A stretch of 37,092 bases of DNA. Origin: a virus. Taxonomy: Duplodnaviria; Caudoviricetes. Below are positions 9,666-31,486 of this stretch, piece after piece. The DNA lies in IMG/VR virus record IMGVR_UViG_3300008120_000330, positions 1-37,092 of that record, one strand, 5' to 3'. Position 1 is the stretch's first letter. The number at the start of each line of letters is the position of its first letter. The notes below the pieces were generated by a model. The model saw only the letters and a program-made list of their open reading frames with translations. It did no database searches and was not told the DNA's origin. The translations under genes were made by a program, and so were the position numbers.

Positions 9666-11080
9666 CACCCGAAGAAGAGGCAATGCTTGCGTACATGATG
9701 GGCTACGGTACCTACGGCCTGCCATTAATGCCAAGCGCGGCATCGCAATTGAATCTCGTGCAGGATGCTGGCATGATGACGTTTGACCCCGTCTTCATGT
9801 ACAACTCAGGTTTGATTACGCCCGACATGCTGTTGATGCAGATTCGCAATGCCACGCATGAACCGGTTGGCGATGCGAATGAATACGATTATGAGTCAAT
9901 GCTCAATCGCGCGTCAGCCGCTGGTGAACAGGAATTGCTCCAGGGCATGAGCGACATTATGAATGGCGTCAACACCGCCAGCGGTTATGTCCGTAGGCTG
10001 AAGGCAAAACTACTGGACGCCGACCCCGAGACATCCTCTGCCCGCATGTCGTTGTACGACAGCATGCAGAGTGAACTCGAGAAGTTTGAGAAGGTGTGGA
10101 GCAACTACCAGATTGTCGAAGAGAAGCGGCAAACTGGAGAATACTTTATTGACGAGTCAACTGGGATGCTGATGAAGCCTCTCCTTGGCGAAAAGGCCAG
10201 AGAGAATCTTCGTGCTATGGGATGGAAGGGTCCGTTGTCGGAACCTGAGTTCTGGCGAACCATTCCAGATATGGCGACCGTGGACCAGGCGGCGAAACTG
10301 CAGGAGCAGTTGCGCCCGCAGATGGAAGCGTATGAGCGCGACCAGGAGATTGTTGAATCAGGCTGGAAGACCCGCGGCTGGAAGGATATCGAAGACGCGT
10401 ACCAGCGCGCCCTCACCCAGTTCAGCATGCCACAGACGACGCGTCAACTTGGTTACGAAGAACTTGGAACCATCAATGGATTCAATGTAATTCTTCGCCA
10501 GGAAGAGGGAAAGACAAAGGCGTATAGGTACGACTCAAACGGCAAACTCAAGGCCATTTCTCAACCGTTGAGTGATACAGAAATATCTCAATTGCGCAAT
10601 GAATCCGCTGACAGAAAATACAATCCCGGAAAATACCGCCAGGAAATCAAACTTCCCAATAGCGGAAAAATTGTGTATGAAGCGGGCAAGTCTTATCTCG
10701 AAACTACCGCACCTGGCGGCAGGCCCACAACAAGAACTGAAGTCAAATCTTCGACAAAGCAACCGACGCAGGAGCAGAAGTCGCAGGACTACTGGGCCAG
10801 GCAGGCTGCTTATTACACAGCCAAGGGTATGGGCGAAGAGCGCCAGAGGAAGAAGGAAGTTGCCGCAAATGCTGAAGCGCAAGTTGCGGCCAAAATGTTA
10901 GAAGCCCAACAGAGGGGAACAGTCCCTGCTTTGCAGTGGTTGCAGCGTATGCCGCAGTTGGCGGCACTCGCTGCCATGCCGGCTCCTGAAAAGCCAAAAG
11001 CAACTCGTCCAGCACCGCGAGTTCTTTCGGACCAAGAGATTGACACAATGGCCAACATGATTGCTGGAGGAATGCAGTAG
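9662..11080 (+). CDS. Putative internal virion/ejection protein
   Basis: ATGA coupling; ~470 aa helical protein preceding the giant ORF. Confidence 0.65.
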   Translation: MTPEEEAMLAYMMGYGTYGLPLMPSAASQLNLVQDAGMMTFDPVFMYNSGLITPDMLLMQIRNATHEPVGDANEYDYESMLNRASAAGEQELLQGMSDIMNGVNTASGYVRRLKAKLLDADPETSSARMSLYDSMQSELEKFEKVWSNYQIVEEKRQTGEYFIDESTGMLMKPLLGEKARENLRAMGWKGPLSEPEFWRTIPDMATVDQAAKLQEQLRPQMEAYERDQEIVESGWKTRGWKDIEDAYQRALTQFSMPQTTRQLGYEELGTINGFNVILRQEEGKTKAYRYDSNGKLKAISQPLSDTEISQLRNESADRKYNPGKYRQEIKLPNSGKIVYEAGKSYLETTAPGGRPTTRTEVKSSTKQPTQEQKSQDYWARQAAYYTAKGMGEERQRKKEVAANAEAQVAAKMLEAQQRGTVPALQWLQRMPQLAALAAMPAPEKPKATRPAPRVLSDQEIDTMANMIAGGMQ

Positions 11081-14000
11081 TGGCGACTTGGGAGGAAATC
11101 CTAAACGCAAATCCCAGGACTACGGCGACAGGAGGGCAGAGGACTACACCCGCTGTTGTTCGTCGCAGTGATGTCATGCGGCTACCACCTCCGACGAAGA
11201 CGGAGAGTTGGTCGCTTGGTGCTGACAAGCCCAAGAGCAAGGAAGCCGGTGGACTCATGGGTGTCCTCCAGGACATTCTTGAGAGTCCTGTCGGCAAGGT
11301 GGTTGGCAAGGCTGGAGAGATTATCTCCTTGCCCGGTCGCGTTATTCCTTCTGTTGCTCAGGAAATTGCTGATGCACTCGACAGTGACCCAAACACCAAT
11401 GCTTCGTGGAATGACCTTGGCAAGCAAATAACTGACCCGACATTTGGATGGGGAACAGTATTCGGTGATGTGTTCTCGGATGACAGTTTCTGGGGTAGGT
11501 GGGGCAACAGAGCGCTAGGTTTTGTTGGTGACATTGTCACCGACCCCCTGACGTACGTTACATTTGGTGGCAGTCGAGCGCTCCGTATTGGCAGTGAAGT
11601 CGCTGGCGAAACTGCCGAACAGTTGTCGAAGCGTGCTGCACGCATTGGATTTAATCCAGTTACTGGGCGTTCGGGACGTGAGGCTCTTGCCGTTCGCGTT
11701 CTCGAAAAGACTGGTGATGCGGACCTCGCAAAGAGGGCGTACCGCTATGGTCGTTCAGCATTGGCGGACCAGAAAGATGAAGTGTTCGAGACGCTTGGAA
11801 TGGACCGAGCCGGCGTCTACTTCATGGGTCGTCGCGTTGGATTCACAAGAACTGGCCAGGCCCTTGAAGGCTCGCTTGCTTCTATGCGCACGTGGTCTGG
11901 CGACCACTTGTTCAAGCGTGCAGCAGATGTATTTACGCCCGACGATGTTGCGGATGCTAGAAAGGCTCTGGCTCGTGGCACGGCACCGACTGAACGCGCT
12001 GCAAAATATCTACACATGGTTGTATCGGACAACACCAGACGCAAGGCCGTTGGCGCAGCATCGCGCAAGGCTTCTGCCCTTGTTGACGGACTCATCAAGG
12101 AAGTCGGTGAAAAGGATTTCAGGGCGGCAACGCCCAATGTGCGGAAGATTCTTGAAGGAGAACTTCCGTTTGTCGACCCCGTGACAGGTCTTGCGACGAC
12201 AGTTGAACAGCGCGTTGCCGGCAAGTTGCGCGATTGGTTTGATGTGCTTTGGAATGATATTGATACTGCGGCCAAGGCCGTTGACCCGGCTTACGAAGCC
12301 AGCAGGGTCAAGAACTATTTCCCTCACATGATGACGGACGATGCTCTGTTCTATGTGACGAGCAAGAACACAAAGAACACATCGGCATTGAGGGAGATTC
12401 TGTTCAACCCCCTCGATAATGCTGGTTCGTTCAAGCACAGAATGACACTCGACGATGAGTTCTTCGGGGTTCCCCTCAAGGATATTGATGGGCCAATTAC
12501 CGTCGACAGGCTGAATAAGATTGCCAACGATGCTGGTTTCAAGGGTGAGTTCTTTGAAACAAACGCAGCAACGGTCATGCAGAAGTATGTTGGTTCGTAC
12601 GCAGAGCAGATGGGCTTGATTGCGCGAAAGCAGTATCTGGTCGAGAAGGGCGTTTTCCAGCCCCTGTCCGATGTACTCAAGAAGTCAGACCCACAGGTAT
12701 TGAAGGACGCCAAGAAGGCGCTGAAGTTGGCTACCGAACGCCGCACTGCCGCAATTTCTTCTGCGGCAAGCAAAGCCCGTGAGGCTTTGTCTGCCGTGAA
12801 CAAGCAGGCTTTGACTGCTGCTGGAATCTACGACGCGGGCATCCTCCTTGATGATGCTATTGCGGACATGCTCGAACACAGCAATCGTTTGTCTGCCTTG
12901 TATGAAGAAGTGCCCGATGTAATTCGTTCCCTTGAATCCGATTACGAGGCTGTCGTCGCTCGCCTTGAATTTGCACGCGCCGCACTCACCGAGCCGCAGG
13001 CTCGGCTCGAAGATGTCCAGCGTGCGCTTGTGCGCGCAGAGGCCGATGCCCAGCGTCTATTCAACATTGAAGAGGAGATTGGCAAAGTCGGGGCATTCAT
13101 TCAGGAAAACCTCGACAAGATTATGAACGAGGGTTCATTCTCTGGTAGCGACGCAATTACCAATCTTGCTAGGGAATTGAAGGAAGCGGTATCGACCGGC
13201 GTACCCGTCGATGTTGAGGGTAAGCGAGTCGAGGCGCTTATTGCCGCCTCCAAAGAATCATGGTGGAAGGTAGCAAACCCCGACAACAGCATTACTGTCG
13301 ATTCGCTCAAGAATATGAGCGAGAAGCGGGTTGCCGAAATAGTTGAATCATCAATCCGTGGCAATGCCACAGTTGGGGAGATGCGTCAGGCATTGCTGTG
13401 GGTTGCTTCCGCCAACCCTCGCCTGCGTACATCTCAGCCCGAAATGTGGGAGTCGCTGTTTGGACCCAACGGCGTAATGAGAAAAGCCGCAGACGCAGAC
13501 AGAATCCATAGGAGTCTCAACGAAAGCCGATTCAAGGGTCGTCGTGCGGCGACAATTGCGGCACGACGCTCTAATTTGATTTCAGCGGAGCGTTCGCTTG
13601 CCGTTGGCATCAGAGAGTATGTTGCTTCTCGCAGGCTTGCCAACGAATTCCTGAACGCCGATACCGTCATGGGGCGCGCAATTGCTGACGCAAAGATTGC
13701 TCAGCCTATGGACAGATTGGCCGAACTGCTGGTTCGGCCCGAGTACATGGCAGTACGCCACTACTTCGATGGACTTCTTGGTCTCGCTGAAGATGCGGGA
13801 TTCCAGGGAGTGCCCAGGGAATTGGATGTCGACGACATCATGAAGATTCTCAAGGGCATCGGTTCGAACTTTGAAAACTCCAAGTCAATTACCGTCACGG
13901 TTGGATACGACACGACTGGCAAGATTGGCTCGAAGGCCATTGAGAAGTCGCTCACTATTGACATGTCGAACATGGTCGATGATGTTGAATGGCTGATTCG

Positions 14001-17000
14001 CTATGGTGACAACGACGATGTTGATTCATATATCGAAGGAATTACCAGGGGGACAATCACCGACAGCATCACCGTGCCGACGCAGAAGTCACGCGGTGCT
14101 CGGCGTGGTGGGAAGATTGTTGACATCGGTAAGGAAAAGCGCCCGGTTGATGCGGGCAAGGGAGCGCGTGACCGGCTGCAGGCCAGGATTCTGGGCTTTG
14201 AAGATAGTGCGGAGTTCCGTGAAGAACTTGCTGAAAAGGCTTTGCGCGAAGGCGATGCGCTTGGGTCGGCGATTCAGAGCGTAAAAGCAATTGGTAATTA
14301 TTTTGATGCCAATGCAATCAAGAAATCTCTTGTTGAAGTAGTGAAGCGCGAGGCCAGGGAGAATTCTCTTCGTGGCCAGTTGCAAGCACTCGATGCAGAA
14401 ATCGCACGCGAATTCCCGGACATCCCCGTTCAGTACTTTGGTACTGAAATAAACAAGCGTGGCAAATTGATTGGGGGTGTCCGAGACGTAGCGGATGTTG
14501 TCCGCTCCGACTCGTCCGACCAATTGCAAGACCTGTTGACAAAGTTGTGGTTTGTTGCTGATGTTGAAAAGCGCATTGCCGCAACTGTCGATGTATATGC
14601 ATCGGCCAATATGGTGCCGGGTCTTGGTGTTGTCCAAGAAATTTACAATCGCGTTGCTCGTGATTTCCTGGACCGCATTGGTTCCGTATCCGAAAGCCAG
14701 GCCAATGCCTGGAGCGCTCTCAGGGATATTCAGTACAAGATTCTCAACGGCGAATACGACAGCCCGGCTAAGGCATACGAGGCAATTGAAGAAGCAATTA
14801 AGACTCCAGCCATTTCCCGTGCTGTTGCAAAGGCGCGAGGCAATGCTGATGCGCCTAGACTTCTTCGCAAGTTGAATCAGTTTGGTGGACTCAGAAGTAG
14901 TACCGTAGAGTTCAAGGAACTCAAAGCGACTAATCTCGATGTCGCCCAGTCGATGCGCAAAGAAATGATAGAGGAATTGCGCGATTGGTACCAGGCTGTA
15001 TTTCCTGGAGCAAAGCGCAATACTGGGCTTCCTATAATCAAGGAACAACTAGAAATTATTGTCAAGTCCGAGCCTGGTGTCAAGCGCAAGATTGGCAATA
15101 AGTGGGTTACGGTCGAGCGCTATGGACCAAATGCTTCGATGGAAGAACTGTCGTCGTGGTTGGCTGAAACAATCAAGTCAGTCGGGGGTGACAACAGGTC
15201 AACGCGTCGTAATGTTTTGTGGCTCCAGCGTGCGGCAGACCCGTTTATTGACCCATACGACAAGGCGGTGTTCGGCTCTCGTCAGTGGAACGTAAATGTT
15301 CCATCTTCACTTGGAGCATCGCTGCGAGCAACAGCCGCCCAACTTGAAGAAGCAGTTGCTGCCGTAAGACTTGCCGACGAAGCAAGTGCTGCGGCCAAGC
15401 AGGCTCTCGAAAAGCAGCAGACCGAATTGTCGGAGTTGGAGTTGCTTGCGGAAACACTCGGCATCCCTGCTGGCCAAAGGCCGCGGATGCCGCTGACAAA
15501 AGCACAACGCGAAGGGATGACGCAAGAAGACTTGTCAAAGGTGCGCGATGTTGTGCGCAGCATTTTTGAAATCAAGAACTCTCCAGATTATTTGGCGGCG
15601 GTTGAGCGTCGTGGATTGAACGATGTAATCATGATGCTCGCTGACGTAGCCAGCGAGGGTGGGGTAAAGATTCCTCTGGTCAGAACTCATGTGACCAAGG
15701 CTCGTGAATTATTCGACACGGGTATTGAAATCTTTATTAGGCGAGATGAGAACAGCAAGTGGGTTCCGGTCACTTCGCGTGGTCAGATTACTGATGATGT
15801 AAAGCCAGGTAATGTGGGCCAGAAGTATTGGTCGCTTGCTCGCGGAACAACTAAACGTGACGGCGGGCAGTTTGTGCCAGACGCCGCCAAGAATGTCCGC
15901 AACAAAAAGACTATTGAGAAGTTCTACAAGCGCATCGATGAACTCGATGCGATGCGCACGAGCAGAAAGATTTCGGAGAAGAAGTATCAAGCCGAAATCA
16001 ATAAGATATACGACGACCTGGATAGATTGGGACGTAATACCGAATCGGTAAGTCAGACCGAAAACATCGTCCCAATTCTGAGCGAAGGAAAGGAAGAACT
16101 ACGGAAGTACGTTCGTTCTCTTGAGAATCAACGCACCAAGTTGGTTATTGAAAAAAACAATATTCAGGGTGGCGTTGGCAGTATCACGGACGAGACAGCC
16201 GCTAAGTTGCGGGCCGCCAAGCAGGTTGAGATTGATGAACTAAGCAAGAGTATTGAAGAAGCGAATGTCAAACTGTCTAGACGTATTGACGCATCGCGCT
16301 TTGTCCAGCGCGATGGTAGTGATATTCAGTTCAGCGCAGAGGAAATTGAATCATTGTTCCTTACCGCTGGTGACACCGCTGGCGTAGAGAGACTGGCAGC
16401 CGAAGGCCGTCGAGTCGATACCTACTTGCTTGAACTTGAATACAACAGAACAAACGGCCGCATTGGCAATGCCGTCAAGAAGTTGTTGCGCGAGCAGCAG
16501 ATGTCAGATGAAACACGCGCTCTGTTGGAGCGCTGGCTCTCGCGTCCTTCGACAACCTACGGAGACAGGCCGTTGGAGTTCGTGAGTGCCGCCGGTTCGA
16601 AGGTCAGTTTCTTCGAGGCAATAGTCAAGCCGACAATTGATGCGGAGATTAAGCGCCTAACGGAATATCGCAACCGTATTCAGATGTTGATTCGTGCTTC
16701 GCAGCCCGATGTGCAACGCTCGGCCCTAATGAAGGCGCACTTCATCAACCAGGGATTGAAGAATGGTGATTTCACCATTGACGAATTGACTGGTGGTATT
16801 TCCAGGTTGCCCCGCAATTCATCGCCGTGGCAGACCACGGCTCGTAGAGGTCACCTCGAAAGGGTGTGGAGCCAGTCGGTGGACAAGAAGGTTCTCGACA
16901 AGGTCGATGAACTCGAGCGCACGGCACAGGCTGCGAAGTATCGTGAAATCGTGAAGTCAAAGGAGGCGGCTGCCGACCTTGCCGCTCGTATGCGCGAACA

Positions 17001-19221
17001 GGCAGACAAACTGGATACTGATGCACGCGGCAAACTTGGTGTTGCCGAAGGCATTGCTACCAAGATGGTTCAAACGATGGAGCAGATGACTTCTCGTCTT
17101 GGTGATGACATTGAGTACGATGTCATGGCTCGCTACGACCAACTTGTGAACCCAATCCAGGGAAGCCGCTCGAAGCGGCTGAAACCAACTGAGGCAATAG
17201 AAAAAATTCGTGACGAGATTCTGGAACTGCGTCCGATTGAGAAGGGGCCGGTTGGTCCATCGGGCACAATGCTTGTTCGTGGTGCTGATGATGCGGCCAA
17301 TGCCGCTGAAATCAAGAGACTTGCAGACCAGGCGATTTACTACTCCAAGGAACTCGAACCCAACTTCGATATGGCGACTGGCCGCATGACACTGGGTCTT
17401 GAGGTTAGTTTGCGCAAGCGGGCTGTCGCCGCAATTGCCGACCAGAAGGAAGACCTCGCTGGAGAACTCGAGAAGACCAAGAAGGCTTGGGCCAAAGAGC
17501 AGAAGGCTCTCGCTAAGCCATTGAAGTCGGCGGCCAAGGATGCTCAGAAGCGTTTGGTGAAAGCCGGCAAGACGCAGGTTGATGCAATGGCCAAGTTCGA
17601 TAGTGCTGAATTGTTTGCGATGAGCGCGGCTGAGTACGCCGAAACAATTATCCCCAAGTTGCACGCCAACCGTGAGCGGTTGGCTACTCTCATGGGAGAC
17701 ATTGAGAAATTCCTGAAGCGTACTGACAACGACATGGCGTTTGTTGGTGATGTGCTCGCATGGTTGGACGAGGCCGATTCAATCATCGATGACCTGCTAC
17801 CCCAGAGCAGCGCCGACCAGATTGACATTATGACCAGGCTTCGCACCGACCTGGCTAATCTCGAATATGAGTTTATGTCGTCGACAAACCAGGAACAGTT
17901 CCTTCAGAAGTTCAACGCTGGTCTCGCAGATGGTACTGTCGGTCAACGAATTGTCAAGGAGGTCGACAAGGCCAAGGGATTTGTTAGCCTGCAAGCATAC
18001 GGCATGCCCTCATACCAGGCGGAGAAGTGGCTAAGCGACATGTATGTAAACATGTCGCGTCTCCAGGTTCCCGAATTTGCCAGGGCACTCAGCAAGTTCC
18101 TCAGCAAGTACACCGGATTCTTTAAGGCATACGCAGTATCGACGCCTGGATTCGTTGTTCGAAACAGCATGGGCAATACATTCATGTGCATTGCTGGTGG
18201 TGCTGATATCGGAAACATGACCGAGGGACTACGCCTGTACAGGGCTTGGCGTGGAGCGGTCAAGACTGGCGACGAAGCGGGATGGCTTGCCAAGCAAGAC
18301 CCGCGCGTGACTACCGCTATCGCAGCAATGGACGCATCAGGATACGGTCGCGCTACGGAAGCGTTGAGGATGTTTAATCCCAAGCGCAAGTGGCTGGTTG
18401 ACAATGGATACGTCAATGCTTTCCGAAAGGCCAATGAAGTATCGGAAGGTTCGGCTCGCTTTATGCTCGCCTGGGACACCGTTGTGAAGGGCGGAGACTT
18501 CAACGATGCGACAGCCAGGGTCAAGCGATTCTTGTTTGACTACAGCACGACGACACCGGCGGACACGGTGATGCGTCAGTTCGTCCCATTCTGGTTCTGG
18601 ATGTCGCGCAACCTGCCAATGCAGATTGTGAACCAGTACGAGAATCCTCGTGCTTACCTCATGTACCAGAGAGTGACGAACTCAATTCGTGCCGAAGAAG
18701 ACGAGGGCGAAGTCGTGCCCAAGTGGTTGCGCGAATCGGGTGGCGTGAAGATTGCCGATGGCCTGTACGTAAACCCCGACTTCGGATTCAATAAACTGAA
18801 TCAGCAATTGTCCGAACTGGCCGACCCAATGCGGCTGACCTCTTATGTCAACCCTGGTCTTCGCGTGCCGCTCGAAGCAGTCTTCGCAAAGCGCAAAATG
18901 TACACCGACACGCAGTTCAGCGAAAAGGCGCAGGAAGTTACGGGTGGTGCGTTTTCCCCGGCAGTATCCGCTTTGGCGGTTCTGTTGGGCCAGTCAAAGG
19001 AATTGCCAGACGGCAGCATGGGCACGACCGACAGATTCAACTACGCAATGAACAACCTCGTTCCGCCGTTGGCGCAACTCAGTCGTTTGTCTGGCGAAGA
19101 TGATTACAACAAGGAGCGTCGTCGCAGTAACTGGGCAAGTTACTTCGGCATCCCCGTGCGCGAGGTCACTGATTCGATGATTGAAGCAGAGTTGCGTCGC
19201 AGAAAGCGAGAAGGTGAGTAA
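11080..19221 (+). CDS. Giant ejection / DNA-delivery protein (2713 aa); C-terminus resembles large-polyvalent-protein (LPD38-like) regions
   Basis: Uninterrupted 8.1 kb ORF; GFVGDIVTDPLTYV near the N-terminus; NYFPH; C-terminal PGFVVRN...FLFDYS...FVPFWFW typical of large podophage internal proteins. Confidence 0.75.
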   Translation: MATWEEILNANPRTTATGGQRTTPAVVRRSDVMRLPPPTKTESWSLGADKPKSKEAGGLMGVLQDILESPVGKVVGKAGEIISLPGRVIPSVAQEIADALDSDPNTNASWNDLGKQITDPTFGWGTVFGDVFSDDSFWGRWGNRALGFVGDIVTDPLTYVTFGGSRALRIGSEVAGETAEQLSKRAARIGFNPVTGRSGREALAVRVLEKTGDADLAKRAYRYGRSALADQKDEVFETLGMDRAGVYFMGRRVGFTRTGQALEGSLASMRTWSGDHLFKRAADVFTPDDVADARKALARGTAPTERAAKYLHMVVSDNTRRKAVGAASRKASALVDGLIKEVGEKDFRAATPNVRKILEGELPFVDPVTGLATTVEQRVAGKLRDWFDVLWNDIDTAAKAVDPAYEASRVKNYFPHMMTDDALFYVTSKNTKNTSALREILFNPLDNAGSFKHRMTLDDEFFGVPLKDIDGPITVDRLNKIANDAGFKGEFFETNAATVMQKYVGSYAEQMGLIARKQYLVEKGVFQPLSDVLKKSDPQVLKDAKKALKLATERRTAAISSAASKAREALSAVNKQALTAAGIYDAGILLDDAIADMLEHSNRLSALYEEVPDVIRSLESDYEAVVARLEFARAALTEPQARLEDVQRALVRAEADAQRLFNIEEEIGKVGAFIQENLDKIMNEGSFSGSDAITNLARELKEAVSTGVPVDVEGKRVEALIAASKESWWKVANPDNSITVDSLKNMSEKRVAEIVESSIRGNATVGEMRQALLWVASANPRLRTSQPEMWESLFGPNGVMRKAADADRIHRSLNESRFKGRRAATIAARRSNLISAERSLAVGIREYVASRRLANEFLNADTVMGRAIADAKIAQPMDRLAELLVRPEYMAVRHYFDGLLGLAEDAGFQGVPRELDVDDIMKILKGIGSNFENSKSITVTVGYDTTGKIGSKAIEKSLTIDMSNMVDDVEWLIRYGDNDDVDSYIEGITRGTITDSITVPTQKSRGARRGGKIVDIGKEKRPVDAGKGARDRLQARILGFEDSAEFREELAEKALREGDALGSAIQSVKAIGNYFDANAIKKSLVEVVKREARENSLRGQLQALDAEIAREFPDIPVQYFGTEINKRGKLIGGVRDVADVVRSDSSDQLQDLLTKLWFVADVEKRIAATVDVYASANMVPGLGVVQEIYNRVARDFLDRIGSVSESQANAWSALRDIQYKILNGEYDSPAKAYEAIEEAIKTPAISRAVAKARGNADAPRLLRKLNQFGGLRSSTVEFKELKATNLDVAQSMRKEMIEELRDWYQAVFPGAKRNTGLPIIKEQLEIIVKSEPGVKRKIGNKWVTVERYGPNASMEELSSWLAETIKSVGGDNRSTRRNVLWLQRAADPFIDPYDKAVFGSRQWNVNVPSSLGASLRATAAQLEEAVAAVRLADEASAAAKQALEKQQTELSELELLAETLGIPAGQRPRMPLTKAQREGMTQEDLSKVRDVVRSIFEIKNSPDYLAAVERRGLNDVIMMLADVASEGGVKIPLVRTHVTKARELFDTGIEIFIRRDENSKWVPVTSRGQITDDVKPGNVGQKYWSLARGTTKRDGGQFVPDAAKNVRNKKTIEKFYKRIDELDAMRTSRKISEKKYQAEINKIYDDLDRLGRNTESVSQTENIVPILSEGKEELRKYVRSLENQRTKLVIEKNNIQGGVGSITDETAAKLRAAKQVEIDELSKSIEEANVKLSRRIDASRFVQRDGSDIQFSAEEIESLFLTAGDTAGVERLAAEGRRVDTYLLELEYNRTNGRIGNAVKKLLREQQMSDETRALLERWLSRPSTTYGDRPLEFVSAAGSKVSFFEAIVKPTIDAEIKRLTEYRNRIQMLIRASQPDVQRSALMKAHFINQGLKNGDFTIDELTGGISRLPRNSSPWQTTARRGHLERVWSQSVDKKVLDKVDELERTAQAAKYREIVKSKEAAADLAARMREQADKLDTDARGKLGVAEGIATKMVQTMEQMTSRLGDDIEYDVMARYDQLVNPIQGSRSKRLKPTEAIEKIRDEILELRPIEKGPVGPSGTMLVRGADDAANAAEIKRLADQAIYYSKELEPNFDMATGRMTLGLEVSLRKRAVAAIADQKEDLAGELEKTKKAWAKEQKALAKPLKSAAKDAQKRLVKAGKTQVDAMAKFDSAELFAMSAAEYAETIIPKLHANRERLATLMGDIEKFLKRTDNDMAFVGDVLAWLDEADSIIDDLLPQSSADQIDIMTRLRTDLANLEYEFMSSTNQEQFLQKFNAGLADGTVGQRIVKEVDKAKGFVSLQAYGMPSYQAEKWLSDMYVNMSRLQVPEFARALSKFLSKYTGFFKAYAVSTPGFVVRNSMGNTFMCIAGGADIGNMTEGLRLYRAWRGAVKTGDEAGWLAKQDPRVTTAIAAMDASGYGRATEALRMFNPKRKWLVDNGYVNAFRKANEVSEGSARFMLAWDTVVKGGDFNDATARVKRFLFDYSTTTPADTVMRQFVPFWFWMSRNLPMQIVNQYENPRAYLMYQRVTNSIRAEEDEGEVVPKWLRESGGVKIADGLYVNPDFGFNKLNQQLSELADPMRLTSYVNPGLRVPLEAVFAKRKMYTDTQFSEKAQEVTGGAFSPAVSALAVLLGQSKELPDGSMGTTDRFNYAMNNLVPPLAQLSRLSGEDDYNKERRRSNWASYFGIPVREVTDSMIEAELRRRKREGE

Positions 19222-20103: not shown

Positions 20104-20278
20104 CTGTCTGCTCCGCCTCGGCACCGGACATCTCGGCATGAATCTTTGCTGCAGCAGTAGAAATGATTTCCGATGCTTCGCTGTCCTTGCTAATCAAATA
20201 AATCCACGTCGCCAAAGCAAGAGCGGCAATGTGCGTGAGGGTGATGTCGATTACATCAAGCGTGGGTTCTTCATTCAT
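20090..20278 (-). CDS. Hypothetical small membrane protein
   Basis: Hydrophobic ITLTHIAALALATWIYLI; overlaps both neighbours. Confidence 0.55.
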   Translation of the reverse strand: MNEEPTLDVIDITLTHIAALALATWIYLISKDSEASEIISTAAAKIHAEMSGAEAEQTDDKG

Positions 20279-21038
20279 CTTTCAACTCCAGTTCGAAAGT
20301 GTCCATTGCCAGCATCTCCGAGATGACAGCATAACCGACGAGGTCCATCCATGTGTCGAGTAGTGACTCGTTCTGTGGCGTAGCCCCGTTATTCAATAGC
20401 GTATCCAGCCGTGCCAGTTTGTCACACAGACGAATGGCAATGCCAACATGACCGAACTCCATGATGTTCGAGTGTCCATAGTCTCGTTGCTTGCGGACAA
20501 GCAACTCGACCATACCCTCTTTGCTCCACTGCTTGAGTGACTTGAGTTGGCCGATGGCATGGTGCGCGACATCGATAATGTCGAGCCGAGGAATTTCTTT
20601 CTGCTCACGCACCGACTTGGCGATTGTCTTTCGGTATGCGTTGAGGTGTTGGAGGTTGGCGCGTTCCGGTCCGCACAACGAATGCCACTCGTCGACGATT
20701 GCTTCGGCTGCGTCTTCCCAGTAATCAAACATCTTGTACCTCAGATTGATTGAGTGGTCGATTGATAACTTGCGCTGTAGTTCTGCCATGGCCTTGCGAG
20801 CCAATCGCCAGGCGTGTGGCTTGGACACACCGATGCGCTTGCCCAGTGTACTATACGAAATGCCTTCGTAGAACACGGCCTCGACACACATGCGAGAGGT
20901 TTCGTCGAGCGATTCGACCGCCTCCTGTACAGCGAGAATGTGCTGGCGGTTGCCGTCCGTAATGTGGTCGCCCCATTGGAGCAGCCACTCCCCTTCGGTC
21001 TGTGGCTTTGCGGGTACGAGGTCAGGATTCAGCGGCAT
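20271..21038 (-). CDS. Fusion of sigma70 region-4-like HTH and DUF1599 (Nmad1) domain
   Basis: N-half SLDETSRMCVEAVFYEGISYSTLGKRIGVSKPHAWRLARKAMAEL; C-half RKQRDYG...IRLCDKLARL...NESLLDTWMDLVGYA. Confidence 0.75.
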   Translation of the reverse strand: MPLNPDLVPAKPQTEGEWLLQWGDHITDGNRQHILAVQEAVESLDETSRMCVEAVFYEGISYSTLGKRIGVSKPHAWRLARKAMAELQRKLSIDHSINLRYKMFDYWEDAAEAIVDEWHSLCGPERANLQHLNAYRKTIAKSVREQKEIPRLDIIDVAHHAIGQLKSLKQWSKEGMVELLVRKQRDYGHSNIMEFGHVGIAIRLCDKLARLDTLLNNGATPQNESLLDTWMDLVGYAVISEMLAMDTFELELKDE

Positions 21039-25435: not shown

Positions 25436-25462
25436 AACCCCGGCCCCTGTTGGGCCGGGGTT
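25436..25462. terminator. Perfect 11-bp GC-rich hairpin (terminator/attenuator candidate)
   Basis: AACCCCGGCCC-ctgtt-GGGCCGGGGTT; followed by CTTGT on the - strand. Confidence 0.55.
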
Positions 25463-25489: not shown

Positions 25490-25518
25490 AGTTTACACCT
25501 GCTGTCGGAGTATGTCTA
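25490..25518 (-). promoter_or_regulatory. Putative housekeeping-sigma promoter for the replication genes
   Basis: - strand TAGACA (25518-25513)-N17-TAAACT (25495-25490). Confidence 0.5.
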
Positions 25519-26070
25519 CGTTCTCCACGGGTGCCAGCCATTCCCATTCTTTACTGTCGAATAGGTGAAGATGACGATACCTGCGTGTAGATTGGTGGCA
25601 GGGTCGAACAGTTCCTCGCATGTCGTGAGAACACCGTACGATTGGAGATACCCGATGTCGTCGGGGAATCGTGGCTCGCACCAGAACCCGTTGATTTGTA
25701 GGAGTCCCCGGCTACCCCCGTTGGGGTCTGTCGGGTTGTACGAATCGAAGTTACAGCGCGACTCACGGTAGATGATGGACACCAGGGTCTCGATGATTTC
25801 CCTGTCGGCGGGCCAGCCCTGCTGTACCGCTAGTGGCACCCACTCCTGGCATGGTGTGTCTGGCCCGACCAGGGCCGGCAAACTAGCCGAGGGGATACTC
25901 TCCACATCTGCCCTGATTGCCCTCTGTAAGGGCGCCAGAGCCACGCTAGGGTGGGGTGCGGTATCAGGGACAGGGGTGACCCAGGTTGTGGCGGGCGGGC
26001 CATCGCAACTGATGCCAGCCGTAACGAACAAGGCAACGACAGCGAGGTGACCGAACAGTAATCGTTTCAT
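25516..26070 (-). CDS. Secreted/membrane-anchored lytic transglycosylase (SLT-like)
   Basis: N-terminal signal/lipoprotein-like segment; RES catalytic motif, GLLQIN, LFDPATNL and GWHPW. Confidence 0.85.
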   Translation of the reverse strand: MKRLLFGHLAVVALFVTAGISCDGPPATTWVTPVPDTAPHPSVALAPLQRAIRADVESIPSASLPALVGPDTPCQEWVPLAVQQGWPADREIIETLVSIIYRESRCNFDSYNPTDPNGGSRGLLQINGFWCEPRFPDDIGYLQSYGVLTTCEELFDPATNLHAGIVIFTYSTVKNGNGWHPWRT

Positions 26071-27587: not shown

Positions 27588-28481
27588 TTACTTGGTGCTG
27601 ATGAACTTGCTGTACTTACTACCCGAGCAGAAACAGTTGCCGACCTGCTTCTCGCAGAACAAGCAATAGCCACACTCGTAGCAGAACTCCTGCTCCCTGA
27701 TGCGGTTGACATCTGAACCGAGGTTCACATCGCAGGTGGGGCAGTAGAAGTAGCGGTCGAGGTCGTCGTGCTCGTTACCTGTCTCAATCCAACCACGGAA
27801 CTCGTCCCACTCGAACACGGTGCCATCTTCTTCGTCGACCCACACATCGGGGTTGTAGTCGAAGTCGTCGGCAGGCGTAACGCCGGTGGTGTTGGTGACA
27901 TGCGAGGTGTACTTGTACGACTGGGCGTACCACTGGTACTTGTACGAGTTGTTGCTGTACCACACGCCGTGGTCCCAATGACCGTCGCCCTCGTTGACGA
28001 GATAGACAGGCTTGGCCAACTGCTTACTCACAGAGATGATGGCCAACTTGCTACCGGCCGCGAACTTCTCCAACTCTGCGAAGTTCTCGGGGTCGTCGAG
28101 CACATTGGCAACACCGAGTTCGGGCAACCATTCCTCTGCGAACTGGCGAGTGTCTGACTTGCCATTCTCTTCCTTGATGGGAAGCATGCCGTTGTGTGCG
28201 AGGACGATGCCCTCGTCGACGACAAAGGGGTGGCAGTTGTCGATACTCGTAGCACCGTGAGTGGTGATACGCAGATGGAAGATGGCGTGCGCCTTGGGGT
28301 ACTCGGCTCGCATCTCGTGGAACAGGTCGATGGTACTGTCGAGGTCCATCGAACGGTGGTGGAACAGTTGGTCCTTGATGGCGAGGGCAAAGCCGAAGCC
28401 ATCAGGATTGTTGGCACCAGCGGTACGCAGATTCTTCTTGCTCGGCGTAGCACCAGGCTTGGCATAGATGAGTAGACACAT
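27588..28481 (-). CDS. Class II (Ntn) glutamine amidotransferase with C-terminal Cys-rich domain
   Basis: Cys at position 2; NPDGFG, HLRITTHG, NCHPF, AHNG and SDT motifs. Confidence 0.9.
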   Translation of the reverse strand: MCLLIYAKPGATPSKKNLRTAGANNPDGFGFALAIKDQLFHHRSMDLDSTIDLFHEMRAEYPKAHAIFHLRITTHGATSIDNCHPFVVDEGIVLAHNGMLPIKEENGKSDTRQFAEEWLPELGVANVLDDPENFAELEKFAAGSKLAIISVSKQLAKPVYLVNEGDGHWDHGVWYSNNSYKYQWYAQSYKYTSHVTNTTGVTPADDFDYNPDVWVDEEDGTVFEWDEFRGWIETGNEHDDLDRYFYCPTCDVNLGSDVNRIREQEFCYECGYCLFCEKQVGNCFCSGSKYSKFISTK

Positions 28482-28510
28482 GTGTAGTTCTCCTTTGTGA
28501 TGTGATGAAG

Positions 28511-28526
28511 TGATAGGAACCTATCA
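28511..28526. repeat. 16-bp palindrome TGATAGGAACCTATCA (copy 1 of 4)
   Basis: Overlaps the amidoligase stop codon; upstream of the GATase SD. Confidence 0.9.
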
Positions 28527-29735
28527 GGCCACGCCTCGATGAGACATGAGCGGGTGAAGGTCAGGATAGGTGGCGATGTTGTCGCTAGCCCACGCACTGA
28601 ACTGCGTCCAGTCAAGCGCACGCTTCGACACTGCGTCGTTGGCCCTGATGTCACGGGTGTACTGCCACAACGCATGGCTGTACTGAATGATGCCCTTGAC
28701 AGTTGCGGGACGCAGGCTCGAGCGGAAGTAACGCAACTCGACGGTGTTGGCAGGCTGAATGTTCACCGCAACATAGCGGTCGTAGTTCGTCTGCTGACCC
28801 TTGGCCATTGCCACACGGTTATCGCCGTTCATGCGTCCGAACTTGGCATACGACGAGCGACGACCAGCGAATCGCTGAATCGCCTCGTAGTTGCGGTCGT
28901 GGAAAGTCATGAACTTGTACAGGTGTGAGCCAGATGAGAACGAGTTCTTGCTGATGTGAACATGGATACCGGTGTCGGTACGACTCCACGCACTCATGCC
29001 GTACTCGCTGAGTCGACGCAACTTCTCGAACGGGAACATCTCCAAGTGGACACGATAGTCCGCAGGGTGAGTCACGATTTCGAAGCCGTTGATGGAGCCG
29101 TCCTCTTTGAGAATGATGTAGTCATTCTCGATACCGTCGAGGAAGAACTCGGCCGCATCGTTGAGGTTGTCCTCGTCGTCGATGTTGGTCTCGACCTCGA
29201 TGCCGATGTACGGCATGTTGCGCACACGATGACGAGCGATGCCGTTCACCGTCCACGAACGGAAGGTGAGGTTGTCGACCGTGTGATGGTACGACTGAAT
29301 CAGATGAGAGCGATGCGACTGCGGATAACACTCTCCGTTGTCGCAGTAATACTCATCGGTCCTGTCGGAGTACAACAGGCTGTTGGTCGCCTGTCTGTAA
29401 TCGCAGTTGCCACACCGCGAAACATACTCGTCCATACACACACGACATGCGAGGTCGGACTCGTAGTCGTTGATGAGATTCGTCCACGACTCGGGGAAGT
29501 AGTCACCGCACAGTGAGCACGACTCCCCGCTGTCTTCGTGGAACCAGAGGTGAACACATCGTGAGACAACTGACTGTCCGCTGTCCACGATGTAACTAAT
29601 CTCACGGTGCCGCAAGAGGTGATGTGGAACCTCGATGCTCATCGCATCGTCACGAGGAATGTTCTCTCGTGTCTCGAAGCAGAGCACCATCTCTGGTGCC
29701 TCCTCCTCCGGTACAAAGTCTTCTGATGCTGTCAT
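28524..29735 (-). CDS. Putative amidoligase (COOH-NH2 ligase, Amidoligase_2-like) with N-terminal Cys-rich region
   Basis: IGIEVET, EDGSINGFEIVTHP, TGIHVHIS, RYVAVN and TVELRYF motifs; AAAGGA SD before the ATG at 29735. Confidence 0.88.
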   Translation of the reverse strand: MTASEDFVPEEEAPEMVLCFETRENIPRDDAMSIEVPHHLLRHREISYIVDSGQSVVSRCVHLWFHEDSGESCSLCGDYFPESWTNLINDYESDLACRVCMDEYVSRCGNCDYRQATNSLLYSDRTDEYYCDNGECYPQSHRSHLIQSYHHTVDNLTFRSWTVNGIARHRVRNMPYIGIEVETNIDDEDNLNDAAEFFLDGIENDYIILKEDGSINGFEIVTHPADYRVHLEMFPFEKLRRLSEYGMSAWSRTDTGIHVHISKNSFSSGSHLYKFMTFHDRNYEAIQRFAGRRSSYAKFGRMNGDNRVAMAKGQQTNYDRYVAVNIQPANTVELRYFRSSLRPATVKGIIQYSHALWQYTRDIRANDAVSKRALDWTQFSAWASDNIATYPDLHPLMSHRGVA

Positions 29736-29783
29736 GTATTTCCTTTGGTATTGCGTGTTCTCCACACGCAGACAACACACGAA

Positions 29784-29799
29784 TGATAGGAACCTATCA
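29784..29799. repeat. 16-bp palindrome (copy 2 of 4), capping a long leader hairpin
   Basis: Identical sequence, within the 115-nt intergenic region upstream of the amidoligase gene. Confidence 0.9.
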
Positions 29800-29850
29800 C
29801 TGATGTGCTCTCTGCGTGGGGCGAGACTCATCTCGCCACACGACAGGGTA

Positions 29851-30434: not shown

Positions 30435-30557
30435 TCAGTTGTTCTCCTTGTTGTTGTGATTACGGACACGACAGACCACGCACTCGTCGTGGTCGGGAGT
30501 GTGCTCGAAAGCCCACTCGGTGATGAGAGGCACGCTCTCATTTGTGTCGTTGTTCAT
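30435..30557 (-). CDS. 40-aa small protein downstream of hammerhead 1
   Basis: GAAAGGG SD; MNNDTNESVPLITEWAFEHTPDHDECVVCRVRNHNNKENN. Confidence 0.6.
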   Translation of the reverse strand: MNNDTNESVPLITEWAFEHTPDHDECVVCRVRNHNNKENN

Positions 30558-30572
30558 GTGATTTCCCTTTCG

Positions 30573-30635
30573 GTACACCTGTCTCATCAGACACGGGCGG
30601 TGAACTCCGTGTGACGCACCGAAGTGCGTTTCGAC
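30573..30635 (-). ncRNA. Type II hammerhead ribozyme 1 (core 30581-30635 plus pseudoknot tail)
   Basis: - strand: GTC GAAAC GCAC-TTCG-GTGC GTC^ACACGG-AGTTCACCGC-CCGTGT CTGATGA GAC AGGTGTAC. Full catalytic core; predicted cleavage between 30613 and 30612. Confidence 0.93.
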
Positions 30636-30739
30636 TAACGCTTCATGTCCTGCGAAATTGACCACGACACACCGTTTGCGAAACCGCATTGGCAGGTGTA
30701 CAGCCAGCAGAGCGTTGTGATGTATTGACGGAAATCCAT
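30635..30739 (-). CDS. 34-aa small ORF between the two hammerheads
   Basis: GAAAGGA SD; MDFRQYITTLCWLYTCQCGFANGVSWSISQDMKR; its TAG overlaps the first base of hammerhead 1. Below the ORF-track cutoff. Confidence 0.6.
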   Translation of the reverse strand: MDFRQYITTLCWLYTCQCGFANGVSWSISQDMKR

Positions 30740-30752
30740 GTGATGTCCTTTC

Positions 30753-30814
30753 GTTGCGCCTGTCTCATCAGGTGCGGTAGGCGAACTCCGCACGACGCCT
30801 CACGGCGTTTCGAC
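30753..30814 (-). ncRNA. Type II hammerhead ribozyme 2 (core 30762-30814 plus pseudoknot tail)
   Basis: - strand: GTC GAAAC GCC-GTGA-GGC GTC^GTGCGG-AGTTCGCCTA-CCGCAC CTGATGA GAC AGGCGCAAC. Predicted cleavage between 30794 and 30793. Confidence 0.93.
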
Positions 30815-30817
30815 TCG

Positions 30818-30833
30818 TGATAGGAACCTATCA
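30818..30833. repeat. 16-bp palindrome (copy 3 of 4)
   Basis: Overlaps the stop of 30831-31238; 3 nt upstream of hammerhead 2. Confidence 0.9.
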
Positions 30834-31238
30834 CTTGTAGCCCATGGCACGCAGGACGATGTCCTGCTTGGCAGGGGCGAACTTCTTGTTCATCATGAAG
30901 ATGCGGACGAGGTCGATTTCGTCCTTGCTGAACTTGATGACCTGCTTCTTGCTCGGAGTCGCGTACGACTTCTTGGTCTCACGGGCGTGTTCGAGCGACT
31001 TGAACTCGTCGCAAGTGTGGCCCTGCTTGATGAGGAACATCAACTCCATCACATACTGGCGAATGGTGTTCATCTTCCAGTCCTGGCTGACCTTTGCCGA
31101 TGCGACAGCGTAGGGCTGAGCCTTGCCATCGAACTTGCTCAGGCATTCCTCAGCCGCACTCCACCAACCGGCGAGAGCGGCCTTATTGCCACGACGAATC
31201 GCACTCTCGTGCGTGGCGAAGTTTGTCTTGCTGTTCAT
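30831..31238 (-). CDS. First early gene, hypothetical (MNSKTNF...)
   Basis: AAGGAGG SD; phage-typical codon usage; basic protein. Confidence 0.75.
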   Translation of the reverse strand: MNSKTNFATHESAIRRGNKAALAGWWSAAEECLSKFDGKAQPYAVASAKVSQDWKMNTIRQYVMELMFLIKQGHTCDEFKSLEHARETKKSYATPSKKQVIKFSKDEIDLVRIFMMNKKFAPAKQDIVLRAMGYK

Positions 31239-31253
31239 TTCATTTCCTCCTTG

Positions 31254-31269
31254 TGATAGGAACCTATCA
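31254..31269. repeat. 16-bp palindrome (copy 4 of 4; here GTGATAGG-AA-CCTATCAC)
   Basis: Directly abuts the SD of the first early gene. Confidence 0.9.
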
Positions 31270-31486
31270 CGGTTGTGGTTGTGGTTGTTCGGATACGAGC
31301 GACCAACCGCAACGGGTCGAACCATTCAGCCCGCTGTGCGCTGTTCTCCTACCCTTGCTTCGCACGGTGTAAGTGCGGATACGGAACGCCCCTGGTCAGG
31401 GTGCTATTCGACCCCAATACGACGACAAGGGGGGCGCATGGGGGCCCACCGCCAGCCCACTAGACGGAGTCCCTCCGCGCAGAGCC

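What the first reader, a model, noticed from the sequence alone, without database searches (positions are those of the whole stretch)
30573..30814. Two tandem type II hammerhead ribozymes in the phage early operon
Seen: both have the complete core (CUGAUGA, GAAAC, GUC cleavage triplet), a 3-bp open stem II (GUC/GAC), a 6-bp stem I, and a stem III closed by a UUCG or GUGA (GNRA) tetraloop. Stems I and III differ in sequence between the copies but keep full pairing, so structure is under selection. Both are on the sense strand of the early genes and strictly intergenic. Established: type II hammerheads occur in phage/prophage small-gene clusters, but their function there is unresolved. Inference: self-cleavage cuts the early polycistronic mRNA without host RNases.
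Basis: partly seen in the sequence, partly recalled or inferred. Interest (0 to 1): 0.9.

Follow-up and report, generated by a model that had tools for sequence, protein, structure and literature searches.

The report
Hammerhead pair cutting phage early message
Two intact hammerhead ribozyme motifs (RNAs predicted to cut themselves) flank a tiny gene in the early region of an uncultured aquatic phage; such pairs have been known since 2011, and because related phages put a tRNA-shaped element or a long hairpin at the same gene borders, the ribozymes likely chop one long message into separate pieces, each starting with a folded end.

Summary
Observation confirmed. Two type II hammerheads lie on the minus strand (30814-30762, 30635-30581; predicted cuts after 30794 and 30613); 60 shuffles gave no strict hit. 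The arrangement is a known and common kind (Perreault 2011; 36 of 116 viral loci with a parsed hammerhead hold two or more). Added here: of 10 related phage groups, the slot behind the first early gene holds a hammerhead in 6, a covarying tRNA-like minihelix in 2 and a long hairpin in 1 (1 unresolved); before one shared gene the two swap directly. That favours a cut-site role in mRNA segmentation. The scan noted the same swap earlier on other DNA. One contig from an RNA-labelled run joins the first cut site to the second; a strain deletion or library artefact is likelier than RNA splicing. No cleavage or transcription of the ribozymes is shown; host unknown.

The parts
30762..30814 (-). Type II hammerhead HH1; predicted cut between 30794 and 30793; stem III loop GUGA
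   Evidence: sequence, descriptor scan, covariation of stem I; not reported by Rfam
30757..30761 (-). 3' tail of HH1, pairs 5 bp with loop I (30783-30779): pseudoknot
   Evidence: class-wide signal
30746..30752 (-). Ribosome-binding site 6 nt before AUG 30739, directly behind the HH1 pseudoknot
   Evidence: sequence
30635..30739 (-). 34-aa ORF enclosed by the two cut sites (the predicted excised RNA is 181 nt, 30793-30613)
   Evidence: one homolog at 79% identity, 40 aa, same start Met (P0088); no Pfam or PHROG family
30581..30635 (-). Type II hammerhead HH2; predicted cut between 30613 and 30612; stem III loop UUCG
   Evidence: Rfam RF02276 37.3 bits, descriptor scan
30577..30580 (-). 3' tail of HH2 (with 30576) pairing 4 bp with loop I; one pair is compensatorily changed against HH1 (G-C to A-U)
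30435..30557 (-). 40-aa ORF behind HH2, with ribosome-binding site at 30571-30565
   Evidence: sequence; only identical copies among fetched loci; no family
30818..30833 (.). Palindrome TGATAG-4-CTATCA, copy 2, overlapping the stop codon of the 134-aa gene, 3 nt before HH1
   Evidence: same position before the hammerhead or minihelix in relatives
30831..31235 (-). 134-aa first gene of the small-gene cluster, all-helical, family of at least 65 proteins; used as anchor for relatives
   Evidence: fold searches without a significant match
31254..31269 (.). Palindrome copy 1, just before the ribosome-binding site of the 134-aa gene
29755..29828 (-). Long irregular hairpin before the amidoligase gene, with palindrome copy 3 (29784-29799) at its tip; candidate RNase III-type site (inferred)
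   Evidence: z -6.65; long hairpins before this gene in L196, L186, L187 (z -5.8, -5.7, -10.0)
28524..29735 (-). Putative amidoligase
   Evidence: phrog_2443 E 6e-5; PF12224 E 0.0026, below cut-off
28511..28526 (.). Palindrome copy 4, overlapping the amidoligase stop codon
27588..28481 (-). Class II glutamine amidotransferase
   Evidence: PF13230 24.5 bits, above cut-off

Best explanation
The two motifs are intact, pseudoknot-bearing type II hammerheads that are predicted to cut the phage's early polycistronic RNA after 30794 and 30613, likely serving as gene-border processing sites. The cuts would release the 134-aa gene on an upstream piece ending in the palindrome hairpin and stem III, a 181-nt single-gene RNA for the 34-aa ORF, and a downstream RNA for the 40-aa ORF onward. 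Each downstream piece would begin with a 5'-hydroxyl inside stem I and the pseudoknot, about 40 nt before a ribosome-binding site, a natural counterpart of the RiboJ insulator, which would standardise the leader and likely raise stability and translation of small early genes. The family appears to need a cut or structured border at these places rather than a hammerhead as such, since a tRNA-like minihelix (predicted RNase P / RNase Z substrate) or a long hairpin (predicted RNase III substrate) takes the same slots. Shown: sequence, structure covariation, context, replacement. Inferred: cleavage, transcription through the site, effect on stability, the host enzymes.
For: Complete cores and stems. 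Pseudoknot in both copies; over 177 distinct hammerheads parsed in 116 of 121 viral loci, loop I/tail pairing of >= 4 bp in 107 against 28.5 (max 43) with swapped tails; RBS plus ORF >= 25 aa within 45 nt in 125 of 177 against 396 of 3540 random windows. Slot behind the 134-aa gene in 10 distinct groups: hammerhead in window, L196, L186, L187 (core with extra bases), L188, L191; minihelix in L189, L192; long hairpin in L198; unresolved in L217. L189 and L191 (about 90% DNA identity over three blocks) carry a minihelix and a hammerhead before the same downstream gene. Minihelix: 97.5% of cells paired, 8 of 18 pairs changed on both sides, 9 sequences. The 34-aa ORF has a homolog. Tandem prophage hammerheads cleave in vitro and in E. 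coli (PMC3088659 section 6). RiboJ raises mRNA about twofold and protein 2-10-fold (PMC6206723 passages).
Against: No RNA evidence over the ribozymes: the one run on record as RNA that holds the stretch covers only 31143-31301, one contig at depth 2.2. Rfam reports only HH2. A cut 5'-OH end can also trigger decay (glmS; PMC6765202 passages). The minihelix and the hairpin are not shown to be cut, so the swap may reflect a shared structural role other than cleavage. The window itself has no minihelix. The nine minihelix rows come from 4 related phage groups, so the shuffle control overstates significance. The descriptor was looser (stem II >= 1 bp) than the one calibrated, and the loci were picked with a pattern drawn from these two copies.
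Confidence: 0.65

Rival explanations
1. Cleavage destabilises rather than protects: the cut separates downstream genes from the primary 5' end and feeds the pieces to exonucleases, timing or damping early gene expression (glmS-like logic without a ligand).
For: glmS cleavage leads to decay (PMC6765202 passages); the swap with predicted RNase substrates fits any role that needs a cut.
Against: Every downstream piece starts in a stem or pseudoknot directly before an RBS; the relatives' minihelix is followed by its own covarying hairpin before the RBS, a layout that fits protection of the new 5' end.
Confidence: 0.12
2. The hammerheads matter mainly as repeated DNA borders for swapping small gene cassettes; cleavage is tolerated or secondary.
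For: Genes in the slot differ among relatives. All four combinations of stem III type (GUGA or UUCG loop) and stem I type (22 nt or 23-24 nt) occur among 9 family copies. Contigs of other samples leave the window's sequence at or near the ribozymes (X8 at 30574, X9 at 30792; X17 at 30617).
Against: Recombination needs no catalytic core, compensatory stems or pseudoknot; the copies diverge in exactly the stems that would give homology (77% alike over 52 nt). More likely a by-product of the processing role.
Confidence: 0.1
3. Cut-and-religate: after both cuts the outer pieces are joined (a spliced message lacking the 34-aa gene) and the 181-nt inner piece closes into a circle, by ribozyme ligation or a host RtcB-type ligase.
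For: One 157-nt contig (depth 30) of run X17, whose library is described as RNA-Seq cDNA, matches 30496-30617 and then continues with 22 letters identical to 30799-30820. Given the 5 shared letters before C17, this is the same as joining cut site 1 to cut site 2. Longer shared blocks (13, 11, 8, 7 nt) were not used. The join was not listed in 4 DNA runs (some rows not shown) nor in IMG/VR (1 of 39 pattern hits was a hammerhead, the two-copy form).
Against: One contig, short side 22 nt, ending in letters that look like a library adapter (recalled); the tool guesses that X17 is DNA; template switching or a DNA strain with one hybrid hammerhead explains it equally, and hybrids at this junction exist in DNA among relatives. 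A joined product would rebuild an active hammerhead and re-cleave. Perreault et al. looked for spliced and circular products and found none.
Confidence: 0.07
4. Inactive relics.
For: No activity shown; HH1 below Rfam thresholds.
Against: Both cores match the consensus at every position; stems covary; position conserved over phages whose anchor protein is 30-50% identical.
Confidence: 0.03

Closest known systems
Clustered type II hammerheads flanking genes in prophages (Perreault et al. 2011, PMC3088659; Rfam RF02276)
   Same: Type II topology, loop I/3'-tail pseudoknot, several copies flanking single small genes of changing identity, proposed processing into single-gene mRNAs.
   Different: Here an uncultured aquatic phage; cut-to-cut spacing of 181 nt is shorter than all 72 spacings measured (minimum 204); a lineage-specific palindrome precedes the ribozyme; relatives swap it for a minihelix or hairpin, which the sections read do not describe.
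RiboJ synthetic ribozyme insulator (PMC6206723)
   Same: Hammerhead cut leaves a structured 5' end just before an RBS.
   Different: Engineered, one per promoter; here natural, internal to an operon and repeated.
t-elements of plant mitochondrial mRNAs (PMC1920247, search listing and start of abstract only)
   Same: tRNA-like folds that mark mRNA ends; the model for the relatives' minihelix.
   Different: Organellar; the phage elements lack D and anticodon arms as such, are not called by ARAGORN or Rfam, and are absent from the window.
RNase III sites of the T7 early region (recalled, no call)
   Same: Early polycistronic phage message cut at gene borders at long hairpins.
   Different: Host enzyme instead of a ribozyme; in this window only the hairpin at 29755-29828 looks like it, untested.
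Retrozymes and viroid-like circles (PMC4918200, PMC7761336; search listings only)
   Same: Two same-strand hammerheads enclosing a short unit that could be excised and circularised.
   Different: Those are mobile or replicating RNAs of eukaryotes; here the unit holds an RBS and a phage gene, and no circle is shown.

Membership tests
Hammerhead ribozyme type II (RF02276) | Core CUGANGA, GAAA and NUH triplet | tested here: met
   both copies
Hammerhead ribozyme type II (RF02276) | Stems I and III closed by loops, stem II open | tested here: met
   6 bp, 5-6 bp and 3 bp
Hammerhead ribozyme type II (RF02276) | Pseudoknot of >= 4 bp between loop I and the 3' tail | tested here: met
   5 bp in HH1, 4 bp in HH2, one compensatory pair
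Hammerhead ribozyme type II (RF02276) | Rfam gathering score | tested here: inconclusive
   HH2 37.3 of 37 bits; HH1 not reported; none of the relatives' copies reaches it either
Hammerhead ribozyme type II (RF02276) | Self-cleavage | not testable with these tools
   needs an assay or raw RNA reads
Clustered phage/prophage hammerheads (Perreault 2011) | Two or more same-strand copies flanking a gene in a phage genome | tested here: met
   virus record, 98% complete; terminase, portal, capsid; 34-aa gene with homolog
Clustered phage/prophage hammerheads (Perreault 2011) | Processing of the native transcript | not testable with these tools
   only contigs available; the run on record as RNA does not cover the ribozymes
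Retrozyme / viroid-like circular RNA | Circular monomer between tandem ribozymes | tested here: inconclusive
   no back-joint at these sites in 8 runs laid, contigs only; one forward join in X17
tRNA-like minihelix at gene borders (relatives) | Acceptor-like stem stacked on a 5-bp T arm with 7-nt loop, in the window | tested here: not met
   no match in the window by descriptor or covariance model with filters off; present in L188, L189, L191, L192

The most novel reading that the evidence does not exclude
The pair works as a two-ribozyme splicing unit: it excises a 181-nt RNA carrying its own RBS and a 34-aa gene (a circularisable mini-mRNA) and the flanking pieces are religated exactly at the cut sites, the product that Perreault et al. 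predicted but could not find; the X17 contig would be its first trace, and the same junction is where related phages exchange ribozyme halves and gene cassettes.
Probability: 0.07. Interest if true: 0.85.

Novelty: new member of a known kind. Interest (0 to 1): 0.42.

Why it matters
Why phages carry self-cleaving ribozymes between small early genes has been open since 2011 (PMC3088659; still called unresolved in the 2019 review PMC6765202, passages read). This family offers a clean natural comparison: near-identical phages (L189, L191) with a hammerhead or a tRNA-like minihelix before the same gene, so the two leaders can be swapped in one reporter and the 'cut plus protected 5' end' model tested directly. 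The hammerhead pair itself is ordinary. The swap was not found in print in searches (open-access library only), but this scan has noted it repeatedly on other phages.

Tried and rejected
Leaderless translation: the HH1 3' product starts with GUG in frame with the 34-aa ORF (52-aa ORF), but the other copies start with other bases or out of frame and the homolog P0088 starts at the internal AUG: coincidence. More ribozymes or RNA families in the window: none by Rfam or descriptor. Cleavage freeing a blocked RBS: predicted unpairing rises modestly after the cut (0.36 to 0.49, 0.40 to 0.71), but the program ignores pseudoknots; not used. Promoter: no sigma-70-like site near the cluster start above chance (4 found, 3.8 expected). 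Host: nearest annotated capsid proteins are <= 43% identical, no relative of the anchor gene in GTDB genomes, cluster members carry no organism; unknown. blastn of the ribozyme region against 50,697 phage records: no match. Fold of the 134-aa protein: Foldseek nothing at E <= 0.001; best Z 4.9, with several helix-turn-helix DNA-binding domains at Z 4.2-4.9, within the noise for helical models. RNA runs: X24 0 contigs, X20 1 contig upstream. Deep alignments A2 and A3 were too diverse for the locus search; A1 and A4 were used. The 40-aa ORF was too short for the locus search. 'RAGATH' and 'palindrom' did not occur in the main text of PMC5737381; its supplements, which hold the 224 motif drawings, were not read and could hold the minihelix or palindrome. 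Halovirus papers (PMC8707807, PMC7230728, passages) mention tRNA-like sequences and a hammerhead without a swap.

Full report
Observation. The window is a 37,092-base virus record, 98% complete, with structural genes on the plus strand and replication plus small genes on the minus strand. On the minus strand, 30814-30762 (HH1) and 30635-30581 (HH2) each read as a type II hammerhead: open 3-bp stem II, GAAA, stem III with a GUGA or UUCG loop, GUC triplet, 6-bp stem I with a 10-nt loop, CUGAUGA. A descriptor scan finds only these two in the window, and 60 dinucleotide shuffles give 0 strict hits. Rfam RF02276 reports HH2 at 37.3 bits (threshold 37) and does not report HH1. HH2 overlaps the preceding stop codon by one base.

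(a) Loop I pairs with the 3' tail (5 bp in HH1, 4 bp in HH2, one compensatory pair); across 5 family copies stem I is 100% paired with 5 of 6 pairs changed on both sides, the pseudoknot 96% paired with 1 of 5 changed (few, related rows). This is the pseudoknot that Perreault et al. showed to be needed for fast cleavage (PMC3088659, passages of section 7). (b) An RBS and AUG follow each tail. The 34-aa ORF between the copies has a 79% identical homolog with the same start (P0088; the other 3 of 4 hits are repetitive junk). (c) A palindrome TGATAG-4-CTATCA occurs 4 times in the window, all at gene borders of this cluster, one 3 nt before HH1. (d) A long hairpin before the amidoligase gene (z -6.65), with long hairpins at the same place in three relatives.

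How common. In these, my descriptor parsed 177 distinct hammerheads in 116 loci; 36 loci hold two or more; 107 of 177 have a loop I/tail pairing of at least 4 bp against 28.5 with swapped tails; 125 of 177 have an RBS and an ORF of at least 25 aa within 45 nt, against 396 of 3540 random windows (looser descriptor than, 41 of the loci hold less flanking DNA). Tandem type II hammerheads before small phage genes are therefore ordinary, and published: section 6 of PMC3088659 (read whole) describes copies flanking single genes in prophages, shows cleavage in vitro and in E. coli, proposes single-gene mRNAs, and reports that spliced or circular products were not detected. The 2019 review (PMC6765202, passages) still calls the function unresolved.

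Relatives. Using the 134-aa gene as anchor and collapsing near-identical contigs and leaving out those cut short (L123/L185, L195, L197), 10 groups have sequence behind its stop codon. The slot holds a hammerhead in 6 (window, L196, L186, L187 with extra bases in the core, L188, L191), a tRNA-like minihelix in 2 (L189, L192), a long hairpin tipped by the palindrome in 1 (L198), and is unresolved in 1 (L217). The minihelix is an acceptor-like 6-bp stem, a small hairpin, a 5-bp arm with a 7-nt T-like loop, then ACUR and a further hairpin before the RBS; on 9 copies from 4 groups 97.5% of cells pair and 8 of 18 pairs change on both sides, slid controls 25-34% (two rows partly misaligned). ARAGORN and Rfam do not call it. 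L189 and L191, about 90% alike in DNA, carry minihelix and hammerhead before the same gene. The window has no minihelix. I found this swap before consulting earlier notes; the scan had recorded it on other phages, which is not independent evidence. Four literature searches did not show it in print; subscription journals and the supplements of PMC5737381 were not seen.

Mechanism. Three unrelated folds share one slot between a stop codon and an RBS, and each is a plausible cutting signal: self-cleavage; RNase P or RNase Z on a tRNA top half; RNase III on a long stem (the enzyme assignments rest on general knowledge and are untested). In each case the downstream piece would start in a helix close to the RBS. 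I therefore take segmentation of the early message into pieces with protected, standard leaders as most likely (0.65), by analogy to RiboJ, which raises mRNA about twofold and protein 2-10-fold (PMC6206723, passages). Rivals: destabilisation (0.12), recombination borders only (0.10), cut-and-religate (0.07), relics (0.03). That both motifs cleave I put near 0.9, from the perfect cores and the published behaviour of the class.

Variation at the ribozymes. The genes in the slot differ among relatives, all four combinations of stem III type and stem I type occur among 9 copies, and contigs from other samples leave the window's sequence at these motifs (the X9 joint has a side of only 20 nt). One contig of run X17 (157 nt, depth 30) matches 30496-30617 and continues with 22 letters identical to 30799-30820: a single hybrid hammerhead without the 181-nt unit, whose junction coincides with the two cut sites although longer shared blocks exist. 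X17 is described as RNA-Seq cDNA, but the tool judges it probably DNA, and the contig ends in adapter-like letters (recalled). The hybrid was not listed in 4 DNA runs (some rows hidden) or IMG/VR. A DNA strain or a template switch is likelier than RNA religation; it stays as the novel case.

Expression and host. No RNA data cover the ribozymes: the one holder on record as RNA has a single contig at 31143-31301. Near-identical DNA occurs in freshwater, lake and aquatic metagenomes laid. The host was not found.

Palindrome. Each of 11 early clusters examined holds 2-5 copies of one 6+4+6 palindrome whose arms differ by lineage (TGATAG, TGAAAG, TGGAAC, TGGAAA, TGAAAC) while spacers vary within a genome. 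This looks like an operator for a phage protein, perhaps the 134-aa product (confident all-helical model, pLDDT 87.5; no significant fold match); an RNA hairpin role is not excluded. Unresolved.

Verdict. Real, well-formed, a new member of a known kind; the comparative swap makes the processing hypothesis testable but has been seen elsewhere in this scan. Interest 0.42.

Noticed in passing
window 31254-31269, 30818-30833, 29784-29799, 28511-28526: Four copies of a 6+4+6 palindrome at early gene borders; arms are lineage-specific in relatives and seem to track a residue in the conserved TIRxY helix of the 134-aa protein (Q/A with TGAT, K with TGG, V with TGAAAG; by eye, kin share labels). Candidate operator and binder.
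   Followed up: partly
L189 4462-4511, 4762-4808, 5218-5264, 6460-6506; L188, L191, L192 likewise: tRNA-like minihelix repeated 2-4 times per early cluster, not in Rfam, covarying.
   Followed up: yes
window 29755-29828: Long hairpin before the amidoligase gene, RNase III-like; long hairpins at the same place in L196, L186, L187.
   Followed up: partly
L187 4454-4512: Hammerhead with extra bases in the core (CUGAAUGAU) yet intact stems and pseudoknot; natural core variant or decayed copy.
   Followed up: no
window 30617 / 30799 (run X17): Contig with one hybrid hammerhead, junction at the cut sites.
   Followed up: partly
window 27588-29735: Amidoligase plus class II glutamine amidotransferase pair, kept in most relatives; genes of the kind recalled to accompany phage ribozymes.
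   Followed up: partly
window 11080-19221: A 2713-aa ORF in the virion module, not examined.
   Followed up: no
window 25436-25462 (minus): Terminator-like 11-bp hairpin closing the small-gene cluster after a lysozyme-like (SLT) gene 25516-26070.
   Followed up: no
window 20271-21038: Protein with sigma-70 region 4 and a weak DUF1599 (nucleotide modification associated) domain.
   Followed up: no
L032, L011, L061, L001, L044: Other viral loci with 5-8 hammerheads within about 6 kb.
   Followed up: no
L134, L159, L167, L168: Other phages with repeated TGATAG-CG-type palindromes; not checked for kinship beyond the absence of tblastn hits to the window's early genes.
   Followed up: no
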